DNA from: Marsupella aquatica | Lineage: Eukaryota; Plantae; Marchantiophyta | Assembly: GCA_973895155.1 (NCBI GenBank) | Contig: OZ316891.1 | Coordinates: 25,915,899 to 25,979,898, forward strand | Direction of reading: 5' to 3' | DNA: 64,000 nt | Shown here: one piece after another, positions 5,345 to 25,948 of the stretch | Layout: each line of letters begins with the position of its first letter | Position numbering within the stretch: the stretch's first letter is position 1 | Made by a program: the position numbers and the translations under genes | The notes under the pieces: generated by a model | The model's input: the letters and a program-made list of their open reading frames with translations, nothing else | Told to the model about the DNA's origin: nothing | The model's database searches: none

Positions 5345-5372
5345 GTAATCACGGTCTTGTCGACCGTTACCG
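5345..5372 (+). repeat. Left bipartite terminal inverted repeat
   Basis: GTAATCACGG (5345-5354), 11-nt spacer, GTTACCG (5366-5372). Confidence 0.7.
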
Positions 5373-5963
5373 GGGAGTAATAGGCACGACGCGGTTCTGA
5401 CACAGGCACGACCGGCTGGAAACCCCAATTTAAGGAATACTGAAGTATTAGATTAATTCCAATTTTATCTAAATATTATTAGTTAATGAATGATCAACCT
5501 CTTTAACATTTGGTGGGATAGTAAAAAACTTCAAATGTTTTGTTGCAAGATCTTTATAACAATGCATCACTAAATGACATCAAGTACCTCTTGATCCATG
5601 CACAAATCCTTAATTAAACTGTCATTCATTATTTGTTTTAATTGTCTATTTAATTACTATAGGGTTGAATACAAAAAAGATTGACACGCACCAGGGTGCG
5701 TGACCTACAATCATAGTAAGTACCACCCTTTAATTAGTTAGTTTCTTTACAACAATTAATAGGATTGTTGTATATTACAATGTCTACTGGACATTCATTT
5801 GAATGTCAATAATATCATGCCTTAATATCACCAAACTAAGGCCCCACTAACTAATATTATATCTTAAATAAACTAACCAACTTGTCTAAACTTGAGTTCT
5901 CTGGCTACTACTATTCTGAGTTGCCTTTTAAACTGTATGCTAAACTACATGCTTCATTACTGT

Positions 5964-8900
5964 CTAGGATTTGTCACTTGCTATGCATGTCAAGAGATAG
6001 TCTCTTGCCTTGGCAGCAACATTCTTTGGAATTCCTACTAGCCCTGTCACTGGTCCTTTGCGTGCTTTGAAACACCACAAGGCAGAGGAAACATCTATTG
6101 TCTCAGCTTCCTTGTATATTGGAGTTGGATCACGTTCCCATTTCTTATCCCAAGAATCTGCCCACCGCTCCCTTGGCTGCCAGTCTGATTGACCACGTTG
6201 CTTCTTTGCCATAAATGATCTAAACCACTCAACGCCACATACATGAGTAAGAAGGTTTTGTTCATTCACTGGTCCTTCTACCACATCTGTAACAACTAAC
6301 CCCATATGGACGGGATAAACATCCAGGTCTGAGTCGTCCAACCGTACCAACAAATAATAGCCCTTCACAACATCAACCCTAGGGTTAAAACTCTCAGGAG
6401 GTTTATCTTTTGCTGGTCCCACATAATCCACTGTTGCCTCCAACTCACATGCCACATTTCGATATTCTGGTGGAACGTGCTCTCTCCATATTGATAAAGG
6501 CCAAAACCCGTATTCCAAGTTGTGTGCACCTTCAGGTTCATATTGCACCTGCTCACCCTCTAGAGTATCTACAATGTCATTCCAATAATTGATGAGAGTT
6601 GTCCAACGTCGCTTTGGTTCTTCCTCTTTTGTTCGCTTTAGAATAAACTCAAAGAATGACACATGCTTCTTCAACCCTGTCAGCACTTCAGGAAGCATTT
6701 TCAACTCCATCATTGGTAGCCGTTTGGGCACCCCAATTGGGATGTGAGGACTTTTGTCATCTTTCCATGACCACATTTCAATACCTTCCTTGGGTAACCA
6801 TCCCTGATCAGTTGACTTCATTTTGTATTGGAAGCATGGCATACTATCATGACGAACATAGAACCTAAACAACCTGGGTTTTAAATGCCCCACCAATGCC
6901 TCAGGGCCCTTCAACATGAATGGAGCTAAGTAGTTTTTGAAATCTGGGACCTTCTGTAGAAAATGTGGGACTGCATTGGGTGTCCTTGCTCTCATGAACA
7001 AGGACATTAACTCAGGCAATGAGTATGTGGGGTTATGCATCATAGACTCTGAAAAATGCCCAAACATACCGTCAACGTCCTCATGAGTATGCCCAACCAC
7101 CATAAAACCAAGATGAACCTCTTCAAACACCTCCCTTGCTGTCAACAATGACAAATAAGCCATCATATATCTGTTCTTGTTGTCTGAGGCACAATTATCC
7201 AGTTGTAACTTCAATACTCGTGGAAGGGGCCTGAACTTTGGTGCCTCAAGTGCTGCATCACAATGTAACAATCTCAGAATGCTTTTAAATAAAACCCTAG
7301 TCAGACCCTAAACCCAATTTAGGGTTTAAACCCTATTAATGAAACCTTGGCTAGGAGGAGCAACAACTACACAAAGTAGAGTGTCAGTGTGTGTGAGCTT
7401 ATATTATTAAATAATAATAAATTAAAGGATTGTGAGTAAAGTACCTAGGCTTGAGATGTAGGCAATGTCATCCTCAAATGCTCTAAGGACACTTGCCTCC
7501 AAGATATCTTTTCTCCCAAAAAGGAGGTCTTTAAAAAGACTTGTCGAGTCTGGCCCCTCCACAAGTGATTTGATCATTGGATTTGGGTTTTCCAACATCC
7601 TTAGTATTGAATCAATTGACCTAATAGTGATGTTGACATCACCTGGCCACACTCCAACATGATATTGGGCTATGGCCTTGGGACCATGACCATGAGTAAG
7701 GATACCAGTGACAGTAATTGGGAACTTTTGGGCACCATCCACATGCTTAGGATTGAAGGGCATTCTTGGGAGAGTTGTCTTTGAATGATCCATCTTATCA
7801 TGAATAAGGCATAACACTTCCTTGGAACGATGGATGGACTCATATCTCCAGGTATGATAACACATTCTTTGCTGTGTGTGGTCTTGGTGATGTTCCTCCT
7901 CGTCACGCCTTAGGCCCTCTAACTCTTCCTTAGCTCCTGTAAGGTTTGCTTTCCGTTGAAGCAACTCACTACAAGTTGTACACTTTGAAAAGTTGTTGCC
8001 CTTTTTGTGACGTGAGAACTCCCTGAAATACATCTGATGTAGATGACTCAAGGTGGGTTGGGAAATTGGAGGAAGACCAGCCTCCTTGTTGACAACATTA
8101 ACCCTGTTTCTAATATTCTCCCAAATAAGATTCGTTGGCAATTCCCTCAAAACCATCCTTGTATTATCTGCCATGGTTCTCAACTTGGCTGGATGATGAT
8201 CAGCTGCCTCCTCAATAATCTCTTTCATTGACATGAATGCTTGAGATACTTTCTCGGACATACGCCTTTTTCCAACATTACCATGGGTACCTATGTTCAT
8301 TCCAGCCATCACAGTCTTCTTCAAGGCATAAAATTGAGTCTTTCCTCTTGAATGAATGATTCTCCATGCCTCCAAGCACAATACTTTGCCCTCCACTGCT
8401 AGAATCCTTTCTCTAGTACCCAAGTGTATTGTATTTTTAATAGCCTTGATTTCCTCCTCCTTGCGCTCCGCAAACGATTTTGACCACCACTTTTGCCTAA
8501 TTGCCATAGCCAAGTTGCGGTCCAAATATTGGCAACAATGTTCACTACAACAGTCCTTAGTGTTTATCAACAACACATCTTGACGTGCCAAAGATGTGTC
8601 TCTTCTAGATGTCTGGGAAGATGGACTCTTTCTTTTCCTACTTTTATGGACGTAGGACCGCTTGCCACTTGTTGGAGATGTGTTCCCTCCCACAGCTTGC
8701 CTGATGTTGTGGAAAGACAACAAGTTGCCATCCTTGGCAATGAGTTGGTCCATCGACCAAGCTTTTAAGCAATCTCTATGCTTCAGATGATCTATGATAG
8801 CTCCCTCTACAAAATCATTGATCAGAATTCCCACATGTGTATTCCCAAGGGTGACATCCCCAAGCTTCACTATAGGATCTAGAACATGTATAGTTGCCAC

Positions 8901-9353
8901 TGCAAAAATCAACTTGTTCTCATCCACCACCTTTATAGGCATGCCCATCCACAAGGCCTTTGGTAAAACTACTTCCACACCAGACCGACTCTCAGTATGG
9001 TTGTTCCCATCAGAATTTTGATTGACTGGATCTTGATCATCACCAACATTGCCAAACACATCCTCCGATTCCATGGGAGCTCGAAAAAGCTGATTCCTTT
9101 CCCATACAAGGTAACCCCCAATCATGTCCTTCAAAAGTTTGCCATCTTCGCATAGAATGGCCTCGTCAAAAACTTCCTCCAATAGAAGAAGAACTCTGTC
9201 CGCCCCAAGAGGAACATTGTGACAAACCCTGGAAGGATCAAGACTTATCACGCGACCTTTTCCAACCTGTTTCTCACGTATGCCTATAATAACTTGTTCG
9301 CCTTCCCTGATCCAGACTGTCGATGTCACCATAATAATTATGATCCTGCACAT
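5964..9353 (-). CDS. Spliced Sola-like (DUF7869-type) DDD transposase with two N-terminal Tnp1/En-Spm-like domains
   Basis: ORFs 9353-7422 and 7271-5964. Motifs CCxxxCC, FSKCTTC, LIHDKMDHSKTTLP (D1), LQLDNCASDNKN (D2), FMVVGHTHEDVD (D3). N-terminal VGKGRVISLDP..CHNVPLG-type domain occurs twice. GT donor at 7444; splicing between 7444 and ~7275 is not resolved. Confidence 0.8.
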
Positions 9354-9385
9354 CAGAGAATATCACTGTAAGCGTACAGTCCTGT

Positions 9386-10036
9386 CACGTCCGTCAACTT
9401 CACTGCACTGTCCTGTCACGTCGGTCAACAAGCAGAATGTAGTCAATGCACTGAACTGCACGCGACTGGTCGCGTGACCCTAGAGGTACCACACATACCG
9501 GCAATGACTACAATCGATTACGATCAATCATTTCACATCCACTCAGAAAAAATGAGTGGACAGTACCAGTTTACCAATGAGTGGACACTGGACAGTCAGT
9601 AACTACTGAGGACTGTAAGCAATAAGCGCCAGTAAAACGTCCGTGAACTGCATTGTCCTGTCACGACCGTCAACAAGTAAGCAGAATGAAGTCAATGCAC
9701 TGTCCTGTACGCAACTAGTCGCGTGACCTTAGTCAGAGGGTGTAGGGATAATAGGGTCTACAACATAGAAGCTAGAAGCCTAGGCCCAAACTCTAGCTCG
9801 TACTTGGTACTTCAGAAGTAAGAACGATTGCGCGTGAGACAGTAAGATACAATTACGGATCTGAAGGCATCACACATAGTTACCGGCAACAGATTATGCA
9901 TGGTCAGTCAATCATTTCAAGTGAATGAGAATGACTACAATCGATTACGAACAATCATTTCAATTCCACTCAGAAAAAATGAGTGGACAGTACCAGTTTA
10001 CCAATGAGTGGACACCGGACAGTCAGTAACTACTGA
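9386..10036. repeat. Interleaved direct repeats upstream of the transposase
   Basis: ~95-bp pair (~9386-9483 and ~9637-9732), each ending in the ACGC-N6-CGCGTGA palindrome. ~107-bp pair (~9503-9609 and ~9930-10036) containing the hairpin CCACTCA-GAAAAAA-TGAGTGG. Confidence 0.85.
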
Positions 10037-10352
10037 CCCTCATAAGCAATCTCAGTACTTCACTAGCAATCAGTATTCCCGGGGCGGTCGCCAAACGTGA
10101 AATTAAATGCAAAAATTGGAGGGCAACTGAACTTCCTGCCAATTCTAATACGCGCCAGTCAAATGTGCACTCTCTTCTAGAAACCACTATGTATAGTGAC
10201 TAGTGGAGACTAAACAGTATAAAGCATTGAGATGATCCCTACTGCTCATTCCCCCACGAATTCCACTTTCTGGCTACTGGATAATCTATTCGCACATCAG
10301 CTCTCTCATTTCCAATTCTTAGTCTCGGTCCGCATCCCTTGTTTGAAGGGCG

Positions 10353-10897
10353 ATGACTACTCCGCTGAGCTCGAAGAATGAGGATTTTCCGACGGATGAT
10401 TCAGAAGATTTGACGTATCGAATTCATGGTACTCCTTACAGAACGTGTCAGCGATGTAATATAATGTTTACGGTGACTAAATCGGGTCAAATGTTTTGTG
10501 AGAGACGCCATTGTTCGCCACATTTGTCGATGGAAGATCAGATGGAGAGCAATCCGACAGAGATGACAACAAAGATGGCACCAGGGGAGAAGTTAAAGGG
10601 CAAAGCCCTCGTCGAATCCGTTTCGGGGGGGGGGAGAAGTTGAAGGACAAAGCATGCGTCGAATACATTTCGGGTGAAGCAGCAGCAGACGCTAACACAG
10701 TCAAGAAGGAGGCCAAGAAAGTGGACGCTCCGAAGAAAAGGCAATTAGAGATGAACGAAGATTCTGATTTGTATTACAGAAAGAGCAAGCCGAGAAAATC
10801 TATGGACGTTAGGACTTGGGCAAAGGAAGAATTCCTGGATTCAAGGGAATCCACACCAGACATCGATGAGTGGATGACTTCATCTTGGAATGACTGA
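10353..10897 (+). CDS. Small Cys-rich (CxxC...CxxxxC) hypothetical cargo protein, frameshifted at a G10 run
   Basis: ORF 10353 ends GEKLKGKALVESVSG. The overlapping frame continues GEKLKDKACVEYISG, an internal repeat, across the G run at 10625-10634. Confidence 0.55.
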
Positions 10898-11144
10898 CTC
10901 GATCGAAGTCTACAATATTTTGAGTATTCAAAGATTAGATCTACAGATTCAAGAGTAGTTCAAGTTAGAACTTGTTATAGATACTGTGTAGCTTAATTTC
11001 GTCCCGTGGAAAATAGTGTTTGAAAGACCAGGTCAGTTAAATTCCTGGATAGTGCTAGTGGATATGGATTCCACATCCGAAGTCCTTCGGGATCGATGTA
11101 ACCATTTTAGCAATCAAGGAAAAATCTTCCACGAGATTCCTTTG

Positions 11145-12901
11145 GCCTCTAAAACATTAACGCGACCAGGCGAAGACGTTGGTTTTAAATTAGATTGCTG
11201 GCCAATTCTCTGGGCTGTCGACTACAATAAACAATATAAAAAAGACCTGAGATAAATTGGTTCACGCAACTGTACGCGTGATGAAGTACATGTGTAACCA
11301 AAAAAAGAGGTCATCCAACTAACAAGTTGAGATCAGTCAAATCTAAGAAATAAAGCGCGATTACGTTTAAGAGTGCAAAGCTTTCGATGACCTCTAAAAC
11401 ATTAACGCGACTGGGCGCGTCATGATACAAAGACGTTGGTTTTAGAATAGATTTTTGGCCAATTTGCTAGGCTTTCGACTACAATAAACAATACATAAAA
11501 AACCTGAGATAAATTGGTTCACGCGACTTTGCGCGTGATGAACTACATGTGTAACCAAAAAAACAGGTCATCCAACTAACAAGTTGAGATTAGTCAGATC
11601 TCAAAAATAAAGCGCGATTACGTTTAAGAGGGCAGACCTTTCGATGACCTCTAAAACATTAACGCGACCGGGTGCGTCATGATACAAGACGTTGGTTATA
11701 GAATAGATTTCTGGCCAATTTGCTAGGCTTTCGACTACAATAAACAATAATAAAAAACCTGAGATAAATTGGTTCACGCGACTTTGCGCGTGATGAACTA
11801 CATGTGTAACCAAAAAAACAGGTCATCCAACTAACAAGTTGAGATTAGTCAGATCTCAGAAATAAAGCGCGATTACGTTTAAGAGGGCAGAGATTTCGAT
11901 GACCTCTAAAACATTAACGCGACCGGGCGCGTGATGATACGAAGACGTTGGTCTTAGAATAGATTGCTGGCCAATTTTCTAGGCTGTCGACTACAATAAT
12001 CAATACATAAATTGGTTCACGCGACTGTGCGCGTGATGAACTACATGTGTAACCAAAAAAACAGGTCATCCAACTAACAAGTTGAGATCATTTAGATCTC
12101 AGAAATAAAGCACGATTACGTTTAAGAGGGCAGAGCTTTCGATGACCTCTAAAACATTAACGCGACCAGGCGCGTGATGATACGAAGACGTTAGTTTTAG
12201 AATAGATTGCTGGCCAATTTTCTAGGCTGTCGACTACAATAATCAATACATAAATTGGTTCACGCGACTGTGCGCGTGATGAACTACATGTGTAACCGAA
12301 AAAACAGGTCATCCAACTAACAAGTTGAGATCATTCAGATCTCAGAAATAAAGCACGATTACGTTTAAGAGGGCAGAGCTTTCGATGACCTCTAAAACAT
12401 TAACGCGACCGGGCGCGTGATGATACGAAGACGTTGGTTTTAGAATAGATTGCTGGATAATTTGCTAGGCTGTCGACTACAATAATCAATATAACCAGAG
12501 ATAAATTGGTTCACGTGACTGTGCGCGTGATGAACTACATGTGTAACCAAAAAAATAGGTCATCCAACTAACAAGTTGAGATCAGTCAGATCTCAGAAAT
12601 AAAGCGCGATTACGTTTAAGAGGGCAGAGCTTTCGATGACCTCTAAAACATTAACGCGACCGGGCGCGTGATGATACGAGACGTTGGTTTTAGAATAGAT
12701 TTTTGGCCAATTTTCTAGGCTGTCGACAACAATATAAAAAATACCTGAGATAAATTGGTTCACGCAACTGTGCGCGTGATGAACTACATGTGTAACTGAA
12801 AAATCAGGTCATCCTCCTAACTAGTTGAGATCAGTTGGATCTGAGAAATGGACCTCGATTACGTTTCATTTTGCTACGCCGTCGACTACAATAAACAATA
12901 C
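11145..12901. repeat. Tandem array 1: about 7 units of 243-257 bp
   Basis: Unit starts at ~11145, 11389, 11646, 11901, 12144, 12387 and 12638. Most units carry two palindromes, AACGCG-N6-CGCGT and TCACGCG-N6-CGCGTGA. Confidence 0.95.
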
Positions 12902-13679
12902 CAAAATGTACGGACAACTATAATTGAACGCCATACAATTTTAGACTAGAGAATTCATTCGGATCCTCTACTAGTACTTCTGATACATTGCTTCTATATT
13001 GGACTTGAAAAACGGATTGATCAAAATCGGAGTGTGGAATTGGACCATAACTTCATTGACTCAATTCATGCATTGAATGCGTGATTTAAGGCAACTATTC
13101 TCCTCATTTATTGCGGAATTAATGCTGATTGATACTTACAAGCTATTCAGTTGCGTGTGGACTCAGCGATGTTGGCGGCAACCCTTCGATGTTGGCGGAA
13201 ACCCTCCTCCCAGCAAAGCCTCTTCCTTCCAGCGTAGCCTCCTCCTTGTCCCAGCAAACTAATCCTCCTCCTTCGAACTCCAATTTCCTTGAGTATCGTG
13301 ACCGAATCCCACCACCAGAGAATGAAACCTTGTTGATCGTATCGAGATCAAAATCCTTGACCAGACAGTGATTTCAGACTAGCCGCACTTTGTTGGTCCG
13401 CTAGAATGCTTCGATGAATGAGGCAGACTGGAGGTTCTAAATCTTTTGTCGTCCCGCTTGATTGGATGTGCCCTCCCCAAGAATGGGATACAATAAGAAC
13501 TGCGCCAGCGTTGCTTGAATGAGCTCCGCCTCCGCCTGGAATAGTCGAATGATCCAATCTGCTCCACCTCAAATGTGCCTTGGATCAGCCTCCGCTGAGA
13601 GCCCAGCTAGTATCCTGGTCAGGAGAAACTGAAAATGAAGAATGATTCGTGAGCAATGAGATCAGTCTATTGACTCCAT

Positions 13680-14095
13680 GAGGGATGTGTTCATCTTGAC
13701 TCGATTTTGATTTTGAAAATTGGTTCAGTCTCCAGTCATGAGAATCATTGTACAAAATTTGGCATGATAGCTTCTTGAGTTTTGAATTGAGTTGCTATTC
13801 AACGCGCGAATAATCATACGGATCCGGTGTTCTCCACTTCCAAAATGGATTGATTTTGAATATCGGTTCTCCCCGACCATGAGAATCGTTTGACGTTGTT
13901 TAGAGTTTGGGTTTGAATTGGCAAGATAGAGAGTGGAGTATGGATCCGGATCTGACGGTCTCCACTACCAAAATGGAATGATTTTGAAGTTCGCCTCACT
14001 CCGATCGTGAGAAACTTGTCGTTCGTTCAGATTTTGGATTTGAATTGGCAGATATAGTGAAGATACGGATCCGGATCCGGGGGTCTCCACTAACA
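13680..14095. repeat. Degenerate ~125-bp tandem repeat, about 3 copies
   Basis: Recurring TTTGAATTG...TA(C/T)GGATCCGG...TCTCCACT..CAAAATGGA.TGATTTTGAA. Confidence 0.7.
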
Positions 14096-15562
14096 ATCTA
14101 TCGCAGTCGCATAATTACCGGTTTAAATTTCAAATTGGCGATCAAATAGAAATCTCCTTTACCGGAATCCTTTTGATTTTCCGTACTAATCTTTTTTTCA
14201 CGATTGCATAGTTTGTTGAGTCGTTGGTGGAGTGTACGGAGATCATCTGGAACCTTCTTGTCGCTAGGCTGTTATTAGGGTTATGCTAAAATGATACCCT
14301 AATTAGTCGTTCCTTAGTGTCGGCGCCCACGGTCTCGAGTTCACTGTTCATTGTTGTTGATTCTCGCTCCTAGACTTTTGCGCGCCTGCTCTCGTCGCTC
14401 TCGCTCTCACTCTCGTCGCTCTCGCTCTCGCTCCTGCCTTGGATTTCATTTTTGTCGTTGCAGCTCGTTCGTCGTGGTCAGGTGCTGGTCGGCGCGTTGC
14501 AGCTCTTAGTAGTTGTCGATCGTTTCGGTCAGGAGCTCGTTGGCTCGTTGCAGCTCGCATTTACAGCTCGTATTCACTTCTAGTTTGCTCGAAGGGATTC
14601 TTAGGAGCTCGTTGGGTTCGTTGCAGCTAGTTTGTTGGGAGTGTTCGTATCAGCTCGTGTCAGCCAATTTTAAGCTCATATCAGCTCGATCAACGTGTTT
14701 CAGCAGCTTGAACTACTTTTTGGCAGCTTGTTTCAGCTCCTTTCATTCATCATTCAGGTTTGTTTCAGCTCTTTCAATCTTCAGGTTTAGTGCGCTTTTA
14801 TTCATGCTCAGTTTGTCTATCGACAGCTTTGATTGTACTTCAGGAATAGTCTTTTTAACTCGACATAATGAGTTCCATAGCATTAAGCACATGTTATTCA
14901 ATTGGCAGCAACGAAGCTCTATATAGAAGCTGTGTTGTTGTTGCTTAGCATATTTACTTTCTGGAATGCCGCAGCAAGGTCTTCAAGTGCTTGGACGTCA
15001 ATCTCTCAAACGATTACAACACTTTTTCAGAATTCAGGTGCAATTTCTACATTTTCTGCTAGTGTTGATTGTTGTTTGCTAAAATTTCTGTTGATTGTTA
15101 AGCTGAGTTTGTCTGTAAACTCAAATATGTCTGAATCATACAAACTCACTAATTAAAATACAACCTGAATTGTATTAAGTAAGTCATTACAAACCTGCAC
15201 GCTGTGAAATTTAATCATATAAACTCTCATGTTATGTGAATCTCATTACACTGAATCATTTAATTGACGAATACAACCAGTAGACTGCTAAATTGAATCA
15301 TCTTAGCTTAATCATTCTCTAAACTGAATTCCATGCAATCTGAAAACTTCTGATATATAATAGTTTCACAATGACAGAGCTCAAACATCTGAGTTATTGT
15401 AAAGTTCACAAATGAATACTAGTGTGCTTGAATCCATTCAATAAATGCATCATTGCACTTTTCTAGTTCAAAACCTCATGCTTACTCGGATTTCCCTGTC
15501 CGTATGGGTCAGTAATCACAGTTGTATCACTGTATTATCCTAGTGTCCAAAAGTGGTTTGAG

Positions 15563-16840
15563 CTGTTGACGCGACCAGTCGCGTGAGAAGATTGTGAGGT
15601 TCCATTTTAGGGTCAATTGACGCGACCAGTCGCGTCTGAGGGAGCTCTCTCATTGACTGGTTCCGTTAGAGGAGGTATGGTTCCATTTAGGACCAGTCGC
15701 GTGTGAAGGAGACATGATAGATTATTGAGTGCGTTTAGGGTTTAGGGTTTAGGTTCAGTTGACGCGACCAGTCGCGTGTGAGGTAGCTCTCTCATTGACT
15801 TGTTCTATTATAGGTATGGTTCCATTTAGGATCAGTTGACGCGACCAGTCGCGTGTGAGAAGGAGAGGATAGATTATTGAGCGCGTATCATATCCAAATC
15901 TCCACAAGGGCGGTTCAGTGGATATAGTTGTTTAGGTTTAGTTGACGCGACCAGTCGTGTCTGAGGTAGGTCTCATTGACTAGTTCTGTTAGAGGTATGG
16001 TTCCATTTAGGATCAGTTGACGCGACCAGTCGCGTGTGAGAAGGAGGATAGATTATTGAGCGAGTACCATATCCAAATCTCCACAAGGGCGGTTCAGTTG
16101 ATATAGTTGTTTAGGTTCAGTTGACGCGACCAGTCGCGTGTGAGGTAGCTCTCTCATTGACTGGTTCTGTTAGAGGAGGTATGGTTCCATTTAGGATCAG
16201 TTGCCGCGACCAGTCGCGTGTGAGAAGGAAACAGGATAGATTATTGAGCGCGTATCATATCCAAATCTCCACAAGGGCGGTTCAGTGGATATAGTTGTTT
16301 AGGTTTAGTTGACGCGACCAGTCGTGTCTGAGGTAGGTCTCATTGACTGGTTCTGTTAGAGGTATGGTTCCATTTAGGATCAGTTGACGCGACCAGTCGC
16401 GTGTGAGAAGGAGGATAGATTATTGAGCGAGTACCATATCCAAATCTCCACAAGGAAGGTTCAGTTGATATAGTTGTTTAGGTTCAGTTGACGCAACCAG
16501 TCGCGTGTGAGGTAGCTCTCTCATTGACTGGTTCTGTTAGAGGAGGTAAGGTTCCATTTAGGATCAGTTGACGCGACTAGTCGCGTGTGAGAAGGAAACA
16601 GGATAGATTATTGAGCGCGTATCATATCCAAATCTCCACAAGGGCGGTTCAGTGGATATAGTTGTTTAGGTTTAGTTGACGCGACCAATCGCATCTAAGG
16701 TAGTTCTGTTAGAGGTATGGTTCCATTTAGGATCAGTTGACGCGACCAGTCGCGTCTGATATAGCTCTCTCATTGACTGGTTCACGTGACCCAAAAAATC
16801 ACAATCTCCAAAAGAATTGTTCAGTAGACGCGACCAGTCC
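15563..16840. repeat. Tandem array 2: about 15 copies of AGTTGACGCGACCAGTCGCGTG with alternating spacers and a 367-bp higher-order period
   Basis: Core at ~15568, 15619, 15761, 15838, 15944, 16019, 16123, 16203, 16311, 16386, 16490, 16570, 16678, 16739 and 16827. Spacing 75/104/80/108 repeats (15944 to 16311 to 16678). Confidence 0.95.
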
Positions 16841-16847
16841 ATTTGGC

Positions 16848-17399
16848 ATGGGGGAACCTGGTCTGGAGAGCTTCAGATATCTATGCCCAATATTTGACGT
16901 TTTGGACAGAAGCCAAGATGGTCTACTGGCGGGATATTCTGTATTTATTGAAACACTACTACCTGGACTTCCAGATTTCATTGTCGCGGAATTGATATGG
17001 CCTCGCATCAAGGAGTCCTTGAATTCCTCGGCTAATGCAGGAAATTTCTCAATAAAGGAATTGGATGAGTTTGTAGGACTATCTTCGGTATGTCGCAGAT
17101 GGCGCCACCTTGTTGGGAATACCTATCTTCTGGGTGTAATCAAGTTGACTTTATTAGATTTGGCTTCCCCAGGAAATCCTAGTAAACCAATCCGAAATGA
17201 GTCTCTCTCATCGACAGTTCAAAGTTTCTTCCAGAAATACCCAAGAATTAAATTCATGGGGTCAATGTCCAGAGATCTAAGGGAACTCTTCACGAAGACT
17301 TACGATGCTCTTCACCCTCTTGAAAAATGGAAATTTACAGTCAGATGCCACAAAGTTGGATACCTTGAGGGTGACATCTACGCTTTTAAGGAATTCTAG
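16848..17399 (+). CDS. F-box-like cargo protein 1
   Basis: LLPGLPDFIVAELIWP...LSSVCRRWRHLV resembles a plant F-box motif with an insertion. First ATG is at 16848; the upstream TTG start lies inside the array. Confidence 0.7.
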   Translation: MGEPGLESFRYLCPIFDVLDRSQDGLLAGYSVFIETLLPGLPDFIVAELIWPRIKESLNSSANAGNFSIKELDEFVGLSSVCRRWRHLVGNTYLLGVIKLTLLDLASPGNPSKPIRNESLSSTVQSFFQKYPRIKFMGSMSRDLRELFTKTYDALHPLEKWKFTVRCHKVGYLEGDIYAFKEF

Positions 17400-17463
17400 T
17401 TAACTTACGTGACCAAGCGCGTCGTATGTATTCTAACAATGTTTTGTATATGATAAAAGTAGG

Positions 17464-18030
17464 ATGAGCCAACTTTTGAATGAGGCTCGAGATTTCCTTT
17501 CATCTCATGAAAGGAAACAAAAAACAATATGGGATACGCTGGATGAAACCTCCTCTAGTCTCATTGGAGGAATACCAGATGTTTTGGTCATTTCAAACAT
17601 TTGGCCAATACTCTACAAACACTTTATTTCAATTGAAGAAGTGCCTGGATATCGACACCCCGAGATTGATTTGGTTATGGATAGGGTCCGAGATCTTATT
17701 CGGCTTGGAGCTTGTAGCAAGAAGTGGAACTTTTTAGTTACAAATACAAGGTTATGGGCTATCCTCAAACAAGCAAACCGGATTGTTGATGTCGCAAATG
17801 ATGCTCTTTACGACATACCCAAAACTGACGAGTTGGAGTTTGACTCAGTCTGTCGAGTTATTCGACAGGATATTTCTATGCTTCCAGAAATATCTGTTCT
17901 TGGGACTACTACTTCTGACGAAATTGCATTGTTTACCAACAAATATAATAATTTAGATGAGGAAGAACGAGATGTCCTAATCGAAAGGTTTGGTAGATTT
18001 TCTCAGAATCTCGGTGGTCCCAGTTCTTAA
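17464..18030 (+). CDS. F-box-like cargo protein 2
   Basis: LIGGIPDVLVISNIWP...LGACSKKWNFLV. Paralogous to its neighbours, with a shared C-terminal LDEEER-like motif. Confidence 0.7.
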   Translation: MSQLLNEARDFLSSHERKQKTIWDTLDETSSSLIGGIPDVLVISNIWPILYKHFISIEEVPGYRHPEIDLVMDRVRDLIRLGACSKKWNFLVTNTRLWAILKQANRIVDVANDALYDIPKTDELEFDSVCRVIRQDISMLPEISVLGTTTSDEIALFTNKYNNLDEEERDVLIERFGRFSQNLGGPSS

Positions 18031-18082
18031 TTGATAGGTTCTTGTTCTTAATCTTTTCCATATTATGTTGTAGTCCTTTGAC

Positions 18083-18595
18083 ATGAATCGAAAATCTCAT
18101 CGTCAAATGATGATGGAGCGCATTGCACGTGCAAAGGTTATGAACCGAAATATGATATGGAGTCAAGCTGAAGACCTGATACCCGGTCTTCCGGACGATA
18201 TTGTCAAGAAATATATTTGGCCATTAGTCAAAGAGTTTTTCCACTGTCTTGGGAATTTGTCGGATAATGCGATTAAAAATCGCGTCATGGACTTGATCGC
18301 CATTCGGACAGTCAGTAAGAAGTGGTGCCACATAGTTACTTATAGTAGTACTTGGGCGACGGTCACCTTGGTAGCTTACGACTTCACTGATAGACCACGA
18401 TATGAATTGCTTCGAAGGTATTTGACTTCACGGAATGTAGCATTCAGATTTACAGAATCCATCAGAACTTTCCCGCCGCTGGACATTCTGGGTGGATTTG
18501 TAGGATCTGAACTTGACACGTTTAGGAACCTTTGGTTTTGGTTAGATGAAGATGAGCGAAAGGATTGGGTCAGGGAAAACGTTCCTAAAATGTAA
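18083..18595 (+). CDS. F-box-like cargo protein 3
   Basis: LIPGLPDDIVKKYIWP...IRTVSKKWCHIV...LDEDER. Confidence 0.72.
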   Translation: MNRKSHRQMMMERIARAKVMNRNMIWSQAEDLIPGLPDDIVKKYIWPLVKEFFHCLGNLSDNAIKNRVMDLIAIRTVSKKWCHIVTYSSTWATVTLVAYDFTDRPRYELLRRYLTSRNVAFRFTESIRTFPPLDILGGFVGSELDTFRNLWFWLDEDERKDWVRENVPKM

Positions 18596-18670
18596 TTCGG
18601 CACGACGCGACCATGCGCGTGTTAGTATTTTATAATAAATGTTTAACTTTCAATATTTGTCTATTTCAGA

Positions 18671-21600
18671 ATGGATCATACCGGAACTTCAAAGCGGAAA
18701 AGAGACTCGTCTAAACCTGCTTCTCAAAAGAAAGCCAAGACAAGAACGACTCCCGCGGAGACATCCATACTTGCATATCGAGGAAAGTCAATCAGAGAGA
18801 GAACAACGGAGACAAAGAGTATCCATCTCTTTGATTCAACTGAGATATCCAATCTTGGAATAGTCGTTCACAATAGGGCTGTTCGTCTTGTGGTGGCAAA
18901 AAATGATAAAGCTACAGTTTTGGAGAGATCACAAATTCTTGGGTGTTTGTTTGAGAAGAGCATGAAAGTGAAAGAGTGTACAGAGGGATTGGTTCTGCTA
19001 GTCAGCGACGACCAGCAGGATGACAAAATAAGCATTTGTTTGGATCGAACGCAATATGTAACCTTCAATCAGTCCAGAATCGATGATCTTCTAGGTGCAA
19101 GGCACGCTTTGGAAAAGGTTACTAGTGTGGGATACCCTTCCGATCCAGAGGGATCAATGGGAGATTTGATTTGTCAATACATTATTGACGTACTTGAGTT
19201 CCAAAGAGTTCCTTTCAACCAGGGATTTCGCTTGGGAAAGGCCCCCCCAGTGACCAAGGTTGAAGTATACTCGGCGGAGAATCTTCCGAAAGTCATTACC
19301 TCAGCGAATGTCGGGGCTCTGTTCGATTCTTTCCTCAAAGAATATAGTGTTGTGAATATATTTAACAGCAAGTCATTTTTTGTTGAGACATCACGTTGTC
19401 ATCTTGCACCGGACCACATCAAGTGCCGAGAGTGGAATCAGGATTACACAGATAGGCTAAAGAATTCACTCCTCTCTCATTCGGCTATAAAGTTCGAAAA
19501 GCGATGCTGCTTTTTAGTCCATATGAAGTGGGTTCAGTCGGAGGTCGACAGAGATCCCGACTACAATGGGACACCCTATGATTCGGCGCCAACGGAGAAG
19601 GACATTATGACCAGTCATTTTTGGATACTCGGAGGCCAGCACACAATAATGGCGTACAAGTTGCTGAGGATGGACGACAAAGTCAGCCAAGTTGTTCGGG
19701 ACGCATGCGGTACAGTAGAAGCTGTAATGTTTTGGGCAACTCTCAACAACGACAATAATGTTCATTTGATGGGACTATCGAAGGCTCTGAACCACTGTCA
19801 TCAAACATCAATGGAAGAAGGACAGTTTCTCACCATTGTACGTCAGTGTCGTAATATCTGGAACTCATTCGGGCGGCCTGGATCACATTATCGTCATCCA
19901 AATGGGAAGGTATATAAATAACCCTCTTCCCTAAACCCTAAACATTATCTTTTAAATGTTTTCTCACGCAAATGGTCGCGTCAATCTTAGAATATTCATG
20001 TTTCCATTGTTTTTCAGGTATTTATGAGAGCTACGAGTTTTGTTTGCCCATGGGCTCAAATGGGGAAGAACGAAATGATGAAATTTGGAGAATTGGCTCC
20101 ATTTCTCTTTACAATGGAGGACGAAACATTCAAGAAGTGGATGGAGGTCTACAAACTATCAAGGACAGGAGAGCTTGTAATTTACAACGGAATTTTACAG
20201 AGAGACGCCGTCAAAATTGCGGATAATCCCTGTGCTTATCATCTCCTTAAGAAGACGTTCCGTTCTTGTCAAGGGTGCTTGGACTCGGTTCTTGGAAAGG
20301 CAGCGGAATATATGTTGAGCGGAAGACTATCTATACTCAAAAACCGAAGTATCAAAGTGAAATCTGGGAAGGCGAGGAAGTCCTCTGAGGCTCCGGTGTT
20401 GTCAACGACCAGCATGAGTTTGGAGCAATTCTGTATAAAGAAGAAGACGAAAGTTGAGTTTGAGATTTTATTATTGAGTAAACTCAACGGGGATACATCC
20501 ACCCGGACGGAGCTGAAAAGTCTGACAGATTCAGCGCGGAAATTGCGGGTCAACGGAATGATTGATCGCTTTAAGCTCGACAAGATGGTGCTGAAGCAGT
20601 TGAGAGATGCGTTGAGTGGTTATCTGAAGAAGTGCTTAAATGTAAATATTAGTAATGATAATTCGTTGAAGGAGATCGACCCGATATTCTACAGGTTGGT
20701 GGAAGGAATACAAAAATCAGTTGATAGTCAAGGAAACCAACTAGTGCGGCCGGTCGGTGAGAGGCTGAAATTGCGATCCCTGCAGGATATACAAAATGCT
20801 GGGTTTGCAGACTGTATCATACGTGAAGACAAGAACCTTGCGAGCTTGATTTATTTTGATCCCTCATCAATGGGAGATTTGCGTCCGCCAAATTGCTCAT
20901 TCTATGAGGGGTTATTTCGTGCTACTAGCAAGATAGGGGCAAAACCACACCATGTGGTTATTATTGTAGCCTCTCCCGTTGAGTCTTATTTAATCAAACG
21001 GGAATTAGGGAAGTACACACACTATGTTGCTGTCGATAGCCATTATATTCAGAAGCGGCCAAAGGAGAAGAAGCTTATTGTAACCTACGCTTTTCACAGC
21101 TTGGCCTTCAGCACAATGGGCGATCCACAAGCCCTCGAGTTCCAGTTGGTCTCCAAATATCGGATTGATAAGATAGCCAATTTTGAAGAGAGCGGCGAGT
21201 TCACGACACCTTCCCCAGAAAAGATACTTCCATTCTTTGAAAGTATTGTTAGTCAATTCGTCCAATGTGGGGAATGGGCTATATGCTTCGGCGAGGGAAC
21301 GAACTTGATCCAGTGCCTAATGGTAAGTTTTGAGATTTATATTTTGGGGTTTCGATTTTAAGATTATTTGGATTTTCATATTCTCAATTAATATTGTGAA
21401 CTAATTTTGGCTTGTTTTACAGGATGCTGGATCCAATGTAAAATATTACTGCCCTGTGGCAACGCATAAGGAGTTGTCTTATTTCTTGCAACACACCACG
21501 GCGACAATTGATACAATGCTGTCATTGATTGACCCAATACGGGCTAGTATAGAAAAATGTATAGATAAATTAATGAAGTACCGTCCATCTGTAACTGCTC

Positions 21601-23387
21601 TCAGGGCTGATGTCTTGGATGTCCTCCACGAACAACATATCCCAGATAATATTTGTAATCAATTATTGCAAGAGTATGCCCTCTTTGAAGATTCCAATCG
21701 ATTGTACATTCGACCAACGGAGTACCCTCGTGGGCCATTCCAAGGTAGGTTACTTTTGAACCCTCTTACTTTTTCTTGGGTCACGCGAACATGCGCGTGG
21801 ACATTCTCAACATTTCTTTCTAATCTAAAAATCTGATTTTCTTCAGATCAAGTCGAACACGGCTCCAATGTTGAGGATGCAGGGAGCAATGGTGATGCGG
21901 ATGGTAAGGGGGAAGGAGACGTGGAAGGTGACGTGGATGGGGATGTCAATGACCAAGATCCAGAGTGGATGACCGATACCCAGAATGACGTCGGATATTC
22001 CGACAAAAGCGAGGAAGAGAGTGACGGAGAGGAGATGAAGGACGCTGAGGACGCTGAGGACTCTGATGAAGAGGCCACACAGGAGCCTCATCATGAGGCG
22101 GACCAAGAGGAGGCGGCCCGGCAGGAGGACGCCCGGCAGGAGGCGGCCCGGCAGGAGGCGGCCCAGCAAGAGGAGCTTCAAAAGAAAGAGGCGGCCCGGC
22201 AAGAGGCGGCCCGGAAGGAGGACGCCCGGCAGGAGGAGGCCCGACAGGAGGAGGCCCGACAGGAGGCTGCCCGGAAGGAGGAAGCCCGGCAGGAGGAGGA
22301 GGCCTGGCAAGAGGAGGCCCGACAAGAGGAGGCCCGACAAGAGGCGGCCCGGCAAGAGGAGCTTCAAAAGAAGGAGGCTAAGAAGAAAAAGGCGGCAGCT
22401 AGAAAAGCAACTGCCGCAAAGAAGAAGGAAAAAGCCGACGCTGAGAAAGCCCAGGCGGAAAAAGCCCAAGCTGAAAAAGACGAGGCGGAGAAAGCCGAGG
22501 CTGAGAAAGCCCAGGCTGAGAAAGCCAAGGCTGAGAAAACCCAGGCTGAAAAAGACCAGGCGAAGAAAGCCCAGGCTGAGAAAGCCCAGGCCAAGAAAGC
22601 CGAGGCCGAGAAAGCGGAGGCGAAGAAAGCGGAGGCGGAGAAAGCGGAGGCTGAGAAAGCCCAGGCTGAGAAAGCCCAGGCTGAGAAAGCCGTGGCTAAG
22701 AAAGCCCAGGCTGAGAAAGCCCTTTTAGTGACCGAGGAAAATAGGGCCGAGGCGGAGAGTGCCGAGGCGGAGAGGCTGCTGGCCGAGAGGATGGCGGACC
22801 AGAGCGAACAGACCGCAAGACCGGAGAGGGAGGAGGCGGAGGAGGCGCAAAAGGTTGATTCCGCAAGACTGGAGAGAGAAGATACCGCAAGACTGGAGAG
22901 GGTGGAGGCGGAGAAGGTACAGGCAGCGAGGAGGGAGGCCGAGAGGGCCAAGGATCTTTCGCTTATTCCTGAAGCACAACGTCTACCGAAAATAAAGCTG
23001 AATTTGAAGAAGCCTTCTTCACCCTCGGTTGCAGTTAAGAAGAAAATATTAGACTATTTTCTTCGGCCGGAGTTTGAGTTTAACGATCCACCCTTAAGAA
23101 CGGTCTCGTTGGATGATTGGAATAAATATTCATCGGAGCAGCTCCGAGTCCAGGCTGTCTTGGCTTTGCAATATTGGAAGGGTCTTTTGATTACCGAGGA
23201 GAAGACTTCCACTGCATCCAGAATGGAGACAATCATCAATAATGTCCGATTTTCCGAGAATCGAGTGCAAGACCTGGGAATATCTCTGGCACCAGACTCG
23301 GCTCAAGTCGTTAAGAGACTAACAGCTGAGTTGACACGACCGGGTTTGTGGTCTCGACCCCGATATACTACAGAGGTCACTCGTGCG
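18671..23387 (+). CDS. Large four-exon cargo protein: ParB/Srx-like domain, degenerate N6/N4 DNA-methyltransferase-like domain, acidic tract and pentapeptide helical repeats; native C-terminus now inverted at 23443-23690
   Basis: Phase-compatible GT-AG introns at 19910-20017, 21323-21422 and 21745-21846 join four ORFs. ParB-like motifs CREWNQDYTDRLKNSL and FWILGGQHTIMA. MTase-like motifs LIYFDPSS and EKILPFFESIVSQFVQCGEWAICFGEGT. Confidence 0.72.
22105..22722 (+). repeat. Coding 15-bp minisatellite encoding (Q/K)EAAR/QEEAR then KA(Q/E)AE pentapeptides
   Basis: GGCCCGGCAGGAGGA-type and AAAGCCCAGGCTGAG-type units in frame within exon 4. Confidence 0.9.
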
Positions 23388-23423
23388 CTCGGGGGGGTCA
23401 CTATATGGAGGGTCATACATCGC
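23388..23423 (-). mobile_element. 36-bp terminal fragment of a CTCGGG-type MITE in reverse orientation
   Basis: Perfect reverse complement of 23983-24018. Confidence 0.9.
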
Positions 23424-23442
23424 TATGATAGAAACTTTAAGC

Positions 23443-23690
23443 TTATAGCTTGCGGATGACCTTTGGATTGGGTGGATCCGGCCTTTTCGCAGCTGATCTC
23501 TTGGGTGCCTCCTTCGCAACAACATCCTTCAGCCCTCCTCGAGCCCGCAGTGATCGCTCCAACGGACCAGTTTGCGAAGGTTGTAGCGATGAGGCGGGAA
23601 GACCTTCGAATGGTTGTGGCATTTGATTTAAATATTCAACAATCTGGGAATCCAATTCCAAAATATCCGGGGCCACAATTTCCGCGCGAG
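23443..23690 (-). other. Inverted native 3' end of the large ParB-like gene
   Basis: The minus strand begins CTCGCGCG, matching CTCGTGCG at 23380-23387 at 7/8 positions. It reads in frame ...EVTRA-EIVAPDILELDSQ...PKVIRKL*. Confidence 0.8.
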
Positions 23691-24018
23691 CTCGGGGGGG
23701 TCACTTCCACGGAAGTGACACATCACGTGCGACGAAGTATAGGCCCATTTAAATGGGTGTGGCAGAAGACTTCCAAAGTTTGGTGGAAGAACACATAGGG
23801 CATGTTTTATTGATTGGTCGACTTTAAAGAACACATAGGCCTATTTAATTGCAAAAAATACTTTCTATAAAGTTTTTAGGGGTTTTTTAATAAAAAATGA
23901 CAAAATTTTAAGAAAGAAAGGGCTTTGCAAAAAATTATTTTTCACTTTAAAGTTAGGGGGGTCAAACCCTAAAACGTCGCACGCGATGTATGACCCTCCA
24001 TATAGTGACCCCCCCGAG
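23691..24018 (+). mobile_element. ~330-bp MITE with CTCGGGGGGGTCACT TIRs; family makes 8-bp TSDs
   Basis: TIRs CTCGGGGGGGTCACT...AGTGACCCCCCCGAG. Related copies at 38741 and 42783. Confidence 0.88.
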
Positions 24019-24033
24019 TTTCGAATGGTACAG

Positions 24034-25293
24034 GTTGAAGTCTTAACAGAGCAGATGGAGACGGCAATCTTAGCAGACATTGACCATCAGCTGACCTATA
24101 GCCATGGATGTCAGAAGCGCTTGGCGTTCTTTTGTCTTGTCAAGTTGGGTTTGAGAGGAGGAGGGGAAATATGGAACTTGCATCGCAATGATCTGAAAAC
24201 CTGTCTGGACAAAGCAGGCAGGGAGTATGTCATGTAAGTATCCTTTTGAATCACTAACTTAACAAGTTTTTTCTTTCTGTGATCCCTGACTGCTCATATT
24301 ATGTGGTTTTCGTGTTCAGGTTTGAAGAGAGGGAGAGCAAAAACAACTCGTACACACTTCAGAAGTACCAAGAGGAGTAGTTTCGCAATGTCTTCCATAG
24401 TTACGATGAAGACTTCTTGATGACGGTGAAGCAGTACAAGCGGCATTTGCCACCTGAAGCAGAGACCGAGAAGCCTGACTTGTTCATGCAGGCTGTCACA
24501 AATCCAGCAGGGATTGTTTGGTACAACAAATGTCACAAGGTCGGGAGAGATACAGCTGGTAAGTGGCTAAAAAATATGGCTCTACTAGTAGGATTGACAC
24601 CTGAAGTATTCACCAATCGCAGTGGGAGAGATACTCTCATCACCCGAATGGCTGCTCGTGGAGTTCCTGATGAAGTTGGTATGCTAATCAGTGGACACCA
24701 TTCCACTGGGGGCTATTTGAGGTATGATCGAACACAGAGATTGAAGATGGAAGCAACTACATTAGTGTCTAGCAATCCTGCTCTGGATTACGAGAAAGCC
24801 TTGTCACATGTATCAAAGAAATTTGTTGCAGAGGAGCTGGTCGGATCTTGTTCTGGTTTGAAGCCGCTTGTAAGCAGGGTGAGCGAGAACTCTAATCTGC
24901 CGATGGCCATTACGAATCTCTTGCAGGTAAGTCGATGCAGTACTTTCTGATTTCTTGTGACTTGTTTACTGTAATCTCATTTTACTTATTCCTGCTATGA
25001 ATTGGCAGGTCCGAGAGGAACAACATATGGAGGAGAAAGGTCCTACAAATAGTTCGGATGGTTCAAACAGCAAGAGGTCGAGATGGGAGAGAAATTATGA
25101 CAACTTTGACTGGGAGAATGCAATTCTGACCAAGGATCCAGAGCTGTTTAAGAGAATGTCATCGCTACCGAAGTCACCACGTTCAGTAGGAAGTAATATG
25201 TCAGGGAATGCTTTCCATAATTGTAGTGTGACCATCAAGTTTGTTCATCCGAACAATGAGGAAGACAAGGAGAATAGTGTAGGTCCAAGCTAA
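24034..25293 (+). pseudogene. Crypton-type (DUF3504-like) tyrosine recombinase, 5'-truncated, with an in-frame stop
   Basis: Exons 24034-24233, 24320-24926 and 25009-25293 joined by phase-compatible GT-AG introns. Motifs LGLRGGGE (R), ESKNN (K), FTNRSGR (HxxR position), ISGHHS (H), YLRYDR (Y). TAG at 24378-24380. Confidence 0.85.
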
Positions 25294-25919
25294 TGGTGTA
25301 GATAGTGATAAGTCTCCATTGTTGAGACAGAGTTCTCATGTAGTCAGGCTAGTTATACAATTGCTTATACAGAATTATCCAGTAACTGTTCTACTGATTA
25401 TACATTTATCATGAACCTGAAGTATTCTTTTGTCACGTCATTTGGATTGATCAGTATTTTGGTCACCTTTCAATAAAACGGAATGATTTTTGTACATGAA
25501 ACTGTTTGAGTCTTTTGTGACCAAATTGTGTATACACTTTCCGTCTGGATTGTCACAAGAAATCACTATCAGCCATGACACAGAAATAAAACCTGCCAAG
25601 AAACACAAGCCGAGTGTCGCCCCCACTGGAAACCAGAACAGACGATGCTCCTATTGAGAAAACAGAAAAGGAGAAAAAGGATTGGAATAGCCATGATCAA
25701 GAGTAAACTGGCAACTGAGAAATGTATGTTCTCCGTTGAAAAATATGCCTTGTCCATCCACTCCTTATCCCTTTTCCATCCACTCCTTACAGGACTCCGT
25801 AAGGGCATTATGAATTTCCGTCAAAGCATTACAGGGTTTTGTAAAGGAATTATGGATTTTTGTTGTGTCAGGATGGAATATTATGGTAATGGGCATAATG
25901 GACGGAAAGTTTCACCCAA

Positions 25920-25948
25920 CGGTAACCGCACCACCAACCCGTGATTAC
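25920..25948 (-). repeat. Right bipartite terminal inverted repeat
   Basis: CGGTAAC (25920-25926), 12-nt spacer, CCGTGATTAC (25939-25948). Confidence 0.7.

What the first reader, a model, noticed from the sequence alone, without database searches (positions are those of the whole stretch)
5345..25948. Candidate new class of giant plant transposon combining transposase, tyrosine recombinase, ParB-like protein and palindrome arrays
Seen: matched bipartite inverted ends 20.6 kb apart, a DDD transposase at the left end, a DUF3504-type tyrosine recombinase at the right end, five cargo genes, and one palindrome repeated throughout. Established: transposase plus site-specific recombinase is the logic of Tn3-family elements and ciliate Tec elements, and ParB plus repeated palindromes is the logic of plasmid partition. 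Inference: this is one cargo-carrying mobile unit, possibly replicative or with an extrachromosomal stage. I know of no described land-plant family with this combination, but I could not search the literature.
Basis: partly seen in the sequence, partly recalled or inferred. Interest (0 to 1): 0.93.

Follow-up and report, generated by a model that had tools for sequence, protein, structure and literature searches.

The report
Cargo-laden plant transposon, broken recombinase arm
This stretch holds an intact transposase, four or five passenger genes and dozens of copies of one short palindrome, joined at a small inserted element to half of a recombinase gene; it is likely a large, recently multiplied plant transposon with a damaged or swapped right arm, not a working transposase-plus-recombinase machine.

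Summary
The parts are real; the single-unit reading is not supported. Confirmed: cognate ends at 5345/25948, with the right end also marked by a contig fork; no target duplication; an open DUF7869 (Sola-like) transposase; three F-box-like genes; a likely ParB-like gene; 33 palindromes. Left of it, contig depth is about 18-20 times the flank; right of it, about 4 times. The DUF3504-related recombinase starts at the insertion edge, lacks its N-terminal half and has a stop codon. All 33 palindromes lie left of the insertion. Related transposases elsewhere carry their own, different repeated palindromes (5 of 49 loci; shuffles 0 of 49), so the arrays go with this transposase clade and need not be plasmid-type partition sites. 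No replicase or ParA was found. Best reading: a young, cargo-carrying Sola-like family whose copy here ends in a rarer, truncated recombinase arm. Depth over the transposase and left end could not be measured, so transposase-cargo linkage is inferred. My ten literature searches showed no such plant family.

The parts
5345..5374 (+). Left end, bipartite (10 nt + 7 nt blocks), no target duplication
   Evidence: Sequence; match statistics and duplication scan. Homology boundary not tested.
5964..9332 (-). Open DUF7869 DDD/E transposase gene, about 1040-1060 aa, one intron near 7250-7445 (acceptor uncertain)
   Evidence: Pfam E 8e-37; 14 longer relatives, 28-48% identity; HDKMD, LQLDNC and GHTHEDVD motifs conserved; 5 in-frame GT-AG options; CpG o/e 0.31-0.32
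9402..10050 (.). Duplicated units upstream of the transposase with palindromes at 9460 and 9709
10347..10897 (+). Two short overlapping ORFs (98 and 131 aa), unidentified
   Evidence: no Pfam hit
11171..12866 (.). Tandem array 1: 6.8 copies of about 243-257 nt, two palindromes per unit
15555..16760 (.). Tandem array 2: 179/188/367-nt periods, 15 palindromes at 1 mismatch or fewer
   Evidence: contigs on both sides at about 18-20 times flank depth in X2
16848..18595 (+). Three paralogous single-exon F-box-like genes (183, 188, 170 aa)
   Evidence: Pfam F-box E 0.002-0.02, under the cut-off; 21-26% identical, shared G-x-PD and IWP motifs
18671..23387 (+). Long four-exon gene (1469 codons to the insertion): likely ParB/sulfiredoxin-like domain in exon 1, unidentified middle, charged 15-nt repeats; 3' end cut by the insertion
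   Evidence: Open frame with three GT-AG introns; atlas hits DUF3723 cluster 0.95 and ParB_N cluster 0.93; PHROG ParB-like E 0.49, its one relative E 0.099; fold inconclusive
23388..24018 (.). Miniature inverted-repeat element, 631 bp, 36-nt perfect terminal repeats; inner 23691-24018 is a very high-copy shorter form; no target duplication here; likely deletion scar
   Evidence: bin depth 8625 against flank 24.7 in X2, heterogeneous loose ends at 23691/23694 and 24015
24019..25293 (+). 5'-truncated DUF3504-related tyrosine recombinase, three exons, premature TAG at 24378
   Evidence: 167 relatives, best 64% identical; 11 of 38 scanned hit DUF3504, 7 above the cut-off; homology starts at 24022 and profile columns 1-177 of 488 are absent from the window; about 4 times flank depth
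25919..25948 (-). Right end, cognate to the left end; homology between copies stops here
   Evidence: Flank contigs of X1 and X2 start at 25920; bin depth 67.9 against 63 expected if 4 copies stop at 25948 and 99 if they ran on

Best explanation
This is likely a damaged or chimeric copy of a large Sola-like cut-and-paste transposon: an open DUF7869 transposase gene, palindrome arrays, three F-box-like genes and a likely ParB-like gene are joined at a miniature inserted element to a rarer right arm whose tyrosine recombinase lacks its N-terminal half. Shown: the parts, the junction, the truncation, the depth step, the right boundary. Inferred: (1) the transposase and the cargo block are one family of roughly 19 near-identical copies; (2) the transposase moves the element through its short bipartite ends; (3) the interrupted palindrome is a binding site for an element-encoded protein, most likely the transposase, serving its control or protection from silencing, not plasmid-like partition; (4) right arms vary within the family, and a deletion at the miniature element removed the end of the ParB-like gene and the start of the recombinase, so the recombinase does nothing at this locus.
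For: Depth step at the insertion: four cargo-block contigs in X2 at 434-492 against a 6.9-kb zero-difference flank contig at 24.7 (17.6-19.9 times), recombinase arm 4.0 times; median core/arm ratio 8.0 in X2, 8.3 in X3 (another organism label), 34 in X1. All tblastn hits of long recombinase relatives to the recombinase start at 24022 or later, and nothing in the 64 kb matches their N-terminal part. 0 of 164 fetched proteins (150 recombinase and 14 transposase relatives) match the ParB-like or F-box-like exons. The insertion has no target duplication, as a deletion scar would. Palindromes lie 128 and 377 nt upstream of the transposase start, one 2-mismatch copy lies downstream (5686), others lie in introns of the ParB-like gene, and none in the recombinase arm. 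Related DUF7869 loci carry their own repeated palindromes, on both sides of the transposase in L028 (10 copies) and L006 (6 copies): 5 of 49 distinct loci, shuffles 0 of 49, distant flanks 1 of 18. Precedent for a shared transposase arm with entirely different 3' arms in Sola2 elements (PMC3627910, passages).
Against: No 4-bp target duplication, which Sola elements make (PMC10741241, passages). Depth over the transposase and left end was not measured. CpG o/e differs sharply between transposase exons (0.31-0.32) and cargo exons (0.72-1.04), which may mean separate histories. With the insertion left out, the ParB-like frame runs in frame into the recombinase, so a real fusion is possible. 44 of 49 related loci show no repeated palindrome. 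Contig depth is a rough measure (the tool warns that summed depth is no copy number), X1 and X2 may be the source sample, and arms under 82% identity would be missed. Assignment to Sola rests on a recalled motif likeness; Sola2 motifs do not match.
Confidence: 0.5

Rival explanations
1. The two ends belong to a recombinase-mobilised (Crypton/Starship-like) element of about 4 copies. The transposase and cargo family inserted just inside its left end, and a deletion at the miniature element erased the other junction.
For: No target duplication at the ends, which fits tyrosine recombinase elements (PMC3212892 and PMC13465315, passages). The right end has the depth of the recombinase arm, not of the cargo block. 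The first 80 nt at the left end are GC- and CpG-rich, unlike the AT-rich DNA that follows. The recombinase keeps R-K-R-H-Y at the catalytic positions.
Against: Described Cryptons lack terminal inverted repeats and have 4-6-bp direct repeats; no such repeat is here. I saw no second candidate end between 5425 and 5963 by eye. It needs an insertion within 600 bp of the end.
Confidence: 0.2
2. One reading: the intact family encodes transposase, recombinase and a ParB-like protein together and uses them jointly (Tn3- or Tec-like resolution, or a circular stage). This locus is a deleted copy, and most copies carry a recombinase arm too diverged to be laid.
For: Cognate ends enclose both enzymes, each transcribed toward its end. 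Many diverged recombinase subfamilies exist at 50-71% identity, so a majority arm could fall under the 82% limit. The frame is open across the insertion. Precedents: Tec1/Tec2 and MarCry-1_FO (PMC3212892, passages).
Against: Depth step of 8- to 34-fold. Cargo is 95-98% identical to the majority contigs while no majority recombinase arm is seen. No ParA, replicase or helicase. No fetched recombinase relative is fused to the ParB-like protein. No palindromes in the arm.
Confidence: 0.15
3. Three separate things: an old transposase copy, an independent palindrome-rich cargo element of about 19 copies whose own mobilising gene lay in the deleted part, and a recombinase remnant.
For: Three CpG compartments with breaks near 9330 and 24019: 0.31, 0.72-1.41, 0.52. 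The repeats begin within about 50 nt of the transposase start codon.
Against: A degenerate palindrome lies downstream of the transposase; related transposases have the same palindrome architecture; the transposase frame is open.
Confidence: 0.13

Closest known systems
Sola superfamily (Sola1 of Physcomitrella; Sola2 chimeras of dictyostelids)
   Same: DDD-type transposase, short imperfect ends, occurrence in non-flowering plants, sizes up to over 15 kb (PMC10741241 and PMC9033089, passages); a shared transposase arm with different 3' arms (PMC3627910, passages)
   Different: No 4-bp duplication here; motifs differ from the Sola2 alignment; F-box-like, ParB-like and recombinase cargo and internal palindrome arrays were not seen in what I read
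CryptonA / Glomhopper (DUF3504 tyrosine recombinase elements)
   Same: Recombinase related to DUF3504, catalytic residues kept, no target duplication
   Different: Described from animals and Glomeromycota as simple elements without inverted ends (PMC3212892 and PMC13465315, passages); here truncated, inside inverted ends, in a plant; the closest relatives form a clade with no Pfam hit (7 of 7 scanned)
MarCry-1_FO and Euplotes Tec1/Tec2
   Same: DDE/D transposase and tyrosine recombinase within one pair of ends
   Different: Other transposase and recombinase families; MarCry has TA duplications and four copies over 97% identical; here the two arms differ in copy number and the recombinase is broken
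VANDAL transposons with VANC (Arabidopsis)
   Same: DNA transposon with extra genes and family-specific motifs in tandem repeats (PMC5735166, abstract)
   Different: Mutator-like (recalled); no VANC homologue was tested or seen; anti-silencing here is only inferred from CpG retention
Starships (fungi)
   Same: Large cargo elements with a tyrosine recombinase; DUF3723, the atlas neighbour of the ParB-like domain, is a Starship accessory gene (recalled)
   Different: The captain is DUF3435, here DUF3504-related and broken; a DDD transposase is present

Membership tests
Sola | DDD catalytic transposase | tested here: met
   Three acidic motifs conserved in relatives, Pfam DUF7869; that DUF7869 equals Sola1 is recalled, not tested
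Sola | 4-bp target site duplication | tested here: not met
   None at 25 symmetric end shifts; one locus only
Sola | Terminal inverted repeats of 11-1124 bp | tested here: inconclusive
   10 nt perfect plus a 7-nt block; which enzyme owns them is open
Sola | Phylogenetic placement with reference Sola transposases | not testable with these tools
Sola2 | DFAENY / FSDG / FFATSHGK motifs | tested here: not met
   Compared by eye with supplement S10 of PMC3627910, part 1 of 2,
CryptonA | DUF3504-type tyrosine recombinase with catalytic residues | tested here: met
   Through relatives; the window's own pieces have no DUF3504 hit, PHROG integrase E 5e-4
CryptonA | Complete recombinase gene | tested here: not met
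   N-terminal half absent, premature stop
CryptonA | No inverted ends; 4-6-bp direct repeats where described | tested here: not met
   Inverted ends present, no such direct repeat
Tn3/Tec-like transposase + resolvase element | Both enzymes intact and linked in most copies | tested here: not met
   Truncation and depth step; arms under 82% identity would be missed
Tn3/Tec-like transposase + resolvase element | Internal resolution site, cointegrates or circles | not testable with these tools
   Needs the genome, raw reads or PCR
ParABS partition system | ParB-fold protein | tested here: inconclusive
   Atlas 0.93-0.95, PHROG E 0.49 and 0.099, no Pfam or NCBIfam hit, model pLDDT 33.6
ParABS partition system | ParA ATPase and a replicon in the unit | tested here: not met
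   None among 15 ORFs scanned; the deleted part is unknown
ParABS partition system | ParB binds the palindrome | not testable with these tools
   Needs a binding assay
Starship | DUF3435 captain as first gene | tested here: not met
   No DUF3435 hit in 38 relatives scanned or in the window ORFs

The most novel reading that the evidence does not exclude
Land plants host an undescribed family of giant (over 20 kb) elements in which a Sola-like transposase, a DUF3504 tyrosine recombinase, a ParB-like protein and an F-box trio travel between one pair of ends and insert without target duplication through a recombinase-made circle, while each family marks its own DNA with a private palindrome that an element protein binds to escape methylation: a plant counterpart of fungal Starships.
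Probability: 0.18. Interest if true: 0.88.

Novelty: new variant of a known kind. Interest (0 to 1): 0.58.

Why it matters
Even on the cautious reading this is a recently multiplied DNA transposon family of at least 14-18 kb with unusual cargo, which I did not find described (searches; subscription journals and Repbase entries are not covered). Two points are directly testable. First, transposases of this clade come with family-specific interrupted palindromes, which suggests a fast-evolving protein-DNA code like VANC and its targets; if it controls methylation it would be a second plant anti-silencing system. Second, a clade of DUF3504-related recombinases with intact catalytic motifs exists around this plant, whereas the two DUF3504 papers I read in passages cover animals, fungi and stramenopiles. 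If intact copies do join both enzymes, plants would have a Starship-like cargo carrier.

Tried and rejected
No whole genome is held, so copies, gene order and empty sites could not be read. Read depth over the left half was not obtained. Source names of the transposase relatives were not obtained. No RNA holder was listed. A ParB-recombinase fusion was considered because the frame is open across the insertion and set aside because the recombinase's N-terminal half is missing. Longer relatives of the ParB-like exon: none among 2985 candidates (weak); near-length: 1 of 57. Single-sequence folds failed (pLDDT 33.6 and 38.4); the wide fold search gave best Z 5.5, uninformative. A recalled likeness of 20750-21450 to an adenine/cytosine methyltransferase found no support. 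PDB sequence searches found nothing under E 1.3. No relatives in viral contigs, prokaryote genomes or phages; no Rfam match. 0 of 80 related transposase loci hold ParB-like, F-box-like or recombinase hits. This is weak: they are 27-47% identical, only 22 have 7 kb or more upstream, and the flank was capped at 10 kb, while in the window the ParB-like gene lies 11 kb from the matched exon. Ends of those loci could not be defined, and their whole contigs are not held. A primer-binding-site scan did not place the left flank in an LTR, so no empty site could be rebuilt. Earlier findings of the scan: none. Supplements S5 and S6 of PMC3627910 were opened by mistake and were not relevant.
Full report
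Scope. No whole genome is held for this window, so copy structure was judged from public contigs laid on 14500-28500, protein relatives, and 80 related loci. The second laying, on the left half, was not obtained. The host is a plant by its neighbours (Copia elements and a dirigent gene); I did not determine the taxon.

Ends. Both ends read GTAATCACGG and carry GTTACCG a further 11-12 nt in. By itself this is weak: each of ten shuffled windows gave 0-3 bipartite inverted pairs of 10+8 nt, the real window has two unrelated ones, and the true pair has only 10+7. The right end has independent support. Zero-difference flank contigs of runs X1 and X2 both start at 25920, which for 31-letter words places a fork after 25949 (inference). 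The depth of that bin in X2 (67.9) fits four copies stopping there (63) better than running on (99). X1 and X2 share an organism and study label and may be the source sample. Given this right end, an exact 10+7 partner is expected 1.6e-5 times in the window, and it is found at 5345, about 620 nt beyond the transposase stop. The ends are therefore cognate. No direct repeat of 3 nt or more flanks them at any of 25 symmetric shifts. The left boundary itself is untested.

Transposase. 9332 to 5964 on the minus strand, two open exons, five possible in-frame GT-AG splices giving 1038-1062 codons, Pfam DUF7869 E 8e-37. Fourteen longer relatives were found, the closest 1055-1074 aa and 35-39% identical, with HDKMD, LQLDNC and GHTHED motifs. 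These differ from the Sola2 alignment (PMC3627910 supplement S10, part 1 of 2). Likeness to Sola1 is recalled and was not tested, because the defining paper is not held. Sola elements have DDD transposases, 4-bp duplications, sizes of mostly 2-9 kb but sometimes over 15 kb, and occur in Physcomitrella (PMC10741241 and PMC9033089, passages).

Cargo. Three paralogous ORFs at 16848-18595 have weak F-box hits below the cut-off. A long gene starts at 18671 and stays open through three GT-AG introns to 23387. Its first exon is likely ParB/sulfiredoxin-like: atlas neighbours are a DUF3723 cluster (0.95; 78% of members) and a ParB_N cluster (0.93; 35% of members); PHROG ParB-like gives E 0.49, and 0.099 for its one relative. 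Pfam, NCBIfam and folding gave nothing. No ParA, polymerase, Rep, helicase or capsid appeared among the 15 ORFs scanned.

23388-24018 is a 631-bp element with 36-nt perfect terminal repeats. Its inner part from 23691 is a very abundant miniature element with heterogeneous flanks, and it has no target duplication here. Left of it, four X2 contigs lie at depth 434-492 against 24.7 for the flank (17.6-19.9 times) and differ from the window by 2-5%; one X1 contig gives 19.4 times. Right of it the depth is 4 times the flank. The median summed depth of cargo over recombinase arm is 8.0 in X2, 8.3 in X3 and 34 in X1. The tool warns that summed depth is not copy number, and arms under 82% identity are invisible, so these are rough figures; the step itself appears in all three runs with good cover. 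The fourth run, X5, covers 24 of 30 bins thinly and was left out of the ratios.

Recombinase. The exon at 24381-24926 has 167 relatives, the best 64% identical. Of 38 scanned, 11 hit DUF3504 (7 above the cut-off); the 7 closest scanned have no Pfam hit. The catalytic positions read R-K-R-H-Y. All hits of the long relatives to the recombinase begin at 24022 or later, and profile columns 1-177 of 488 match nowhere in the window (16 relatives). The gene also has a TAG at 24378, where other copies differ. Against my reading, the long gene's frame runs into the recombinase when the insertion is left out (1837 codons, one stop). That has a one-in-three chance, none of 164 fetched proteins joins the two, and two contigs that start aligning at 24019 have 75 and 108 unplaced letters before it with no second piece listed (that table is cut). 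I read the junction as a deletion scar.

Palindromes. ACGCG-N6-CGCGT occurs 21 times exactly and 33 times with at most one mismatch; all 33 lie in 9460-21783 and none elsewhere in 64 kb. At two mismatches, further copies appear at 5686 and 25937 inside and at 129 and 44024 outside. They sit upstream of the transposase, in two tandem arrays, between cargo genes and in introns. The 80 related transposase loci reduce to 53 distinct ones, of which 49 had enough flank. Five have three or more copies of some perfect-armed palindrome, against 0 of 49 after shuffling (three shuffles each) and 1 of 18 distant flanks. L028 has 10 copies, including an upstream tandem array, and L006 has 6, on both sides of and within DUF7869 genes. 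Each family's sequence differs. The other 44 show none; of 10 loci inspected, none had an ORF over 219 aa. The palindromes thus go with this transposase clade. Which protein binds them is not shown; L001, L002, L006 and L028 are too short to show cargo.

Composition. CpG observed/expected is 0.31-0.32 in the transposase exons, 0.72-1.04 in cargo ORFs and exons, 1.09-1.41 in the arrays, 0.52 in the recombinase and 0.53-0.55 in flanking DNA. This fits either sequence-specific protection from methylation, as VANC gives VANDAL elements through tandem motifs (PMC5735166, abstract), or separate origins of the three parts. I cannot separate these.

Mechanism. Most likely (0.5): a young Sola-like cut-and-paste family with cargo, whose copy here ends in a minority right arm cut by a deletion. 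Sola2 elements with one transposase arm and unrelated 3' arms are a precedent (PMC3627910, passages; supplement S11). The missing duplication is the main objection and keeps alive an outer recombinase element that owns the ends (0.2). Three separate elements (0.13) rests on the CpG breaks.

Literature. Ten searches were run and seen as listings only; none listed a land-plant element with this combination. The DUF3504 + transposon + plant search gave two papers, read in passages, on animals, fungi and stramenopiles. Passages of PMC5751038, PMC4738411, PMC4455052, PMC10288648 and PMC5753468 were also read and added no match. Repbase entries, subscription journals and the supplements of bioRxiv preprints were not visible and may describe such elements.

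Verdict. A real and unusual locus, best filed as a new variant of a known kind. The claim of a new class needs intact copies, which this locus is not. Interest 0.58; the most novel reading has probability 0.18 and would deserve 0.88.

Noticed in passing
L028:51-2940 and L006:560-4500: Largely open DUF7869 transposase genes, each with its own interrupted palindrome repeated upstream, within and downstream; L028 has a 47-nt tandem array of it. L001, L002 and L044 also have repeated palindromes.
   Followed up: partly
window 23691-24018; weaker relatives near 38910-39018 and from 42786: Very high-copy miniature inverted-repeat family with CTC+G-run ends, nested here in a longer form with the same ends; superfamily not determined.
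   Followed up: partly
P0015-P0069: A diverse clade of DUF3504-related tyrosine recombinases, many with intact catalytic motifs, that mostly escapes Pfam; hosts not named by the tool.
   Followed up: partly
window 20750-21450: The middle of the long cargo gene looks by eye like a degenerate DNA amino-methyltransferase (recalled motifs); four searches gave no support.
   Followed up: partly
window 13000-15500: No ORF of 140 aa or more; the majority contigs have 10-20-nt insertions relative to the window near 14920-15110, so intact copies may encode another gene here. Three spaced repeats at 13820-14100.
   Followed up: no
window 36447-38611: Two tandem 1-kb copies (87% identical), each with a tRNA-Met-type primer site, upstream of a decayed Copia element: a tandem LTR.
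   Followed up: no
window 45-3291 (-): Copia gag-pol immediately left of the element; no primer site found, so its 5' LTR was not located.
   Followed up: partly
window 28167-31227 (-): Single-copy host gene with a tryptophan-rich C-terminal region; recalled likeness to the starch proteins ESV1/LESV, no Pfam hit.
   Followed up: no
L053:7319-18410 and L009:1-14187: Long inverted repeats (about 900 nt at 75%, and 108 nt at 100%) bracket decayed transposase relatives 11-14 kb apart; they may be element ends or nested insertions.
   Followed up: no
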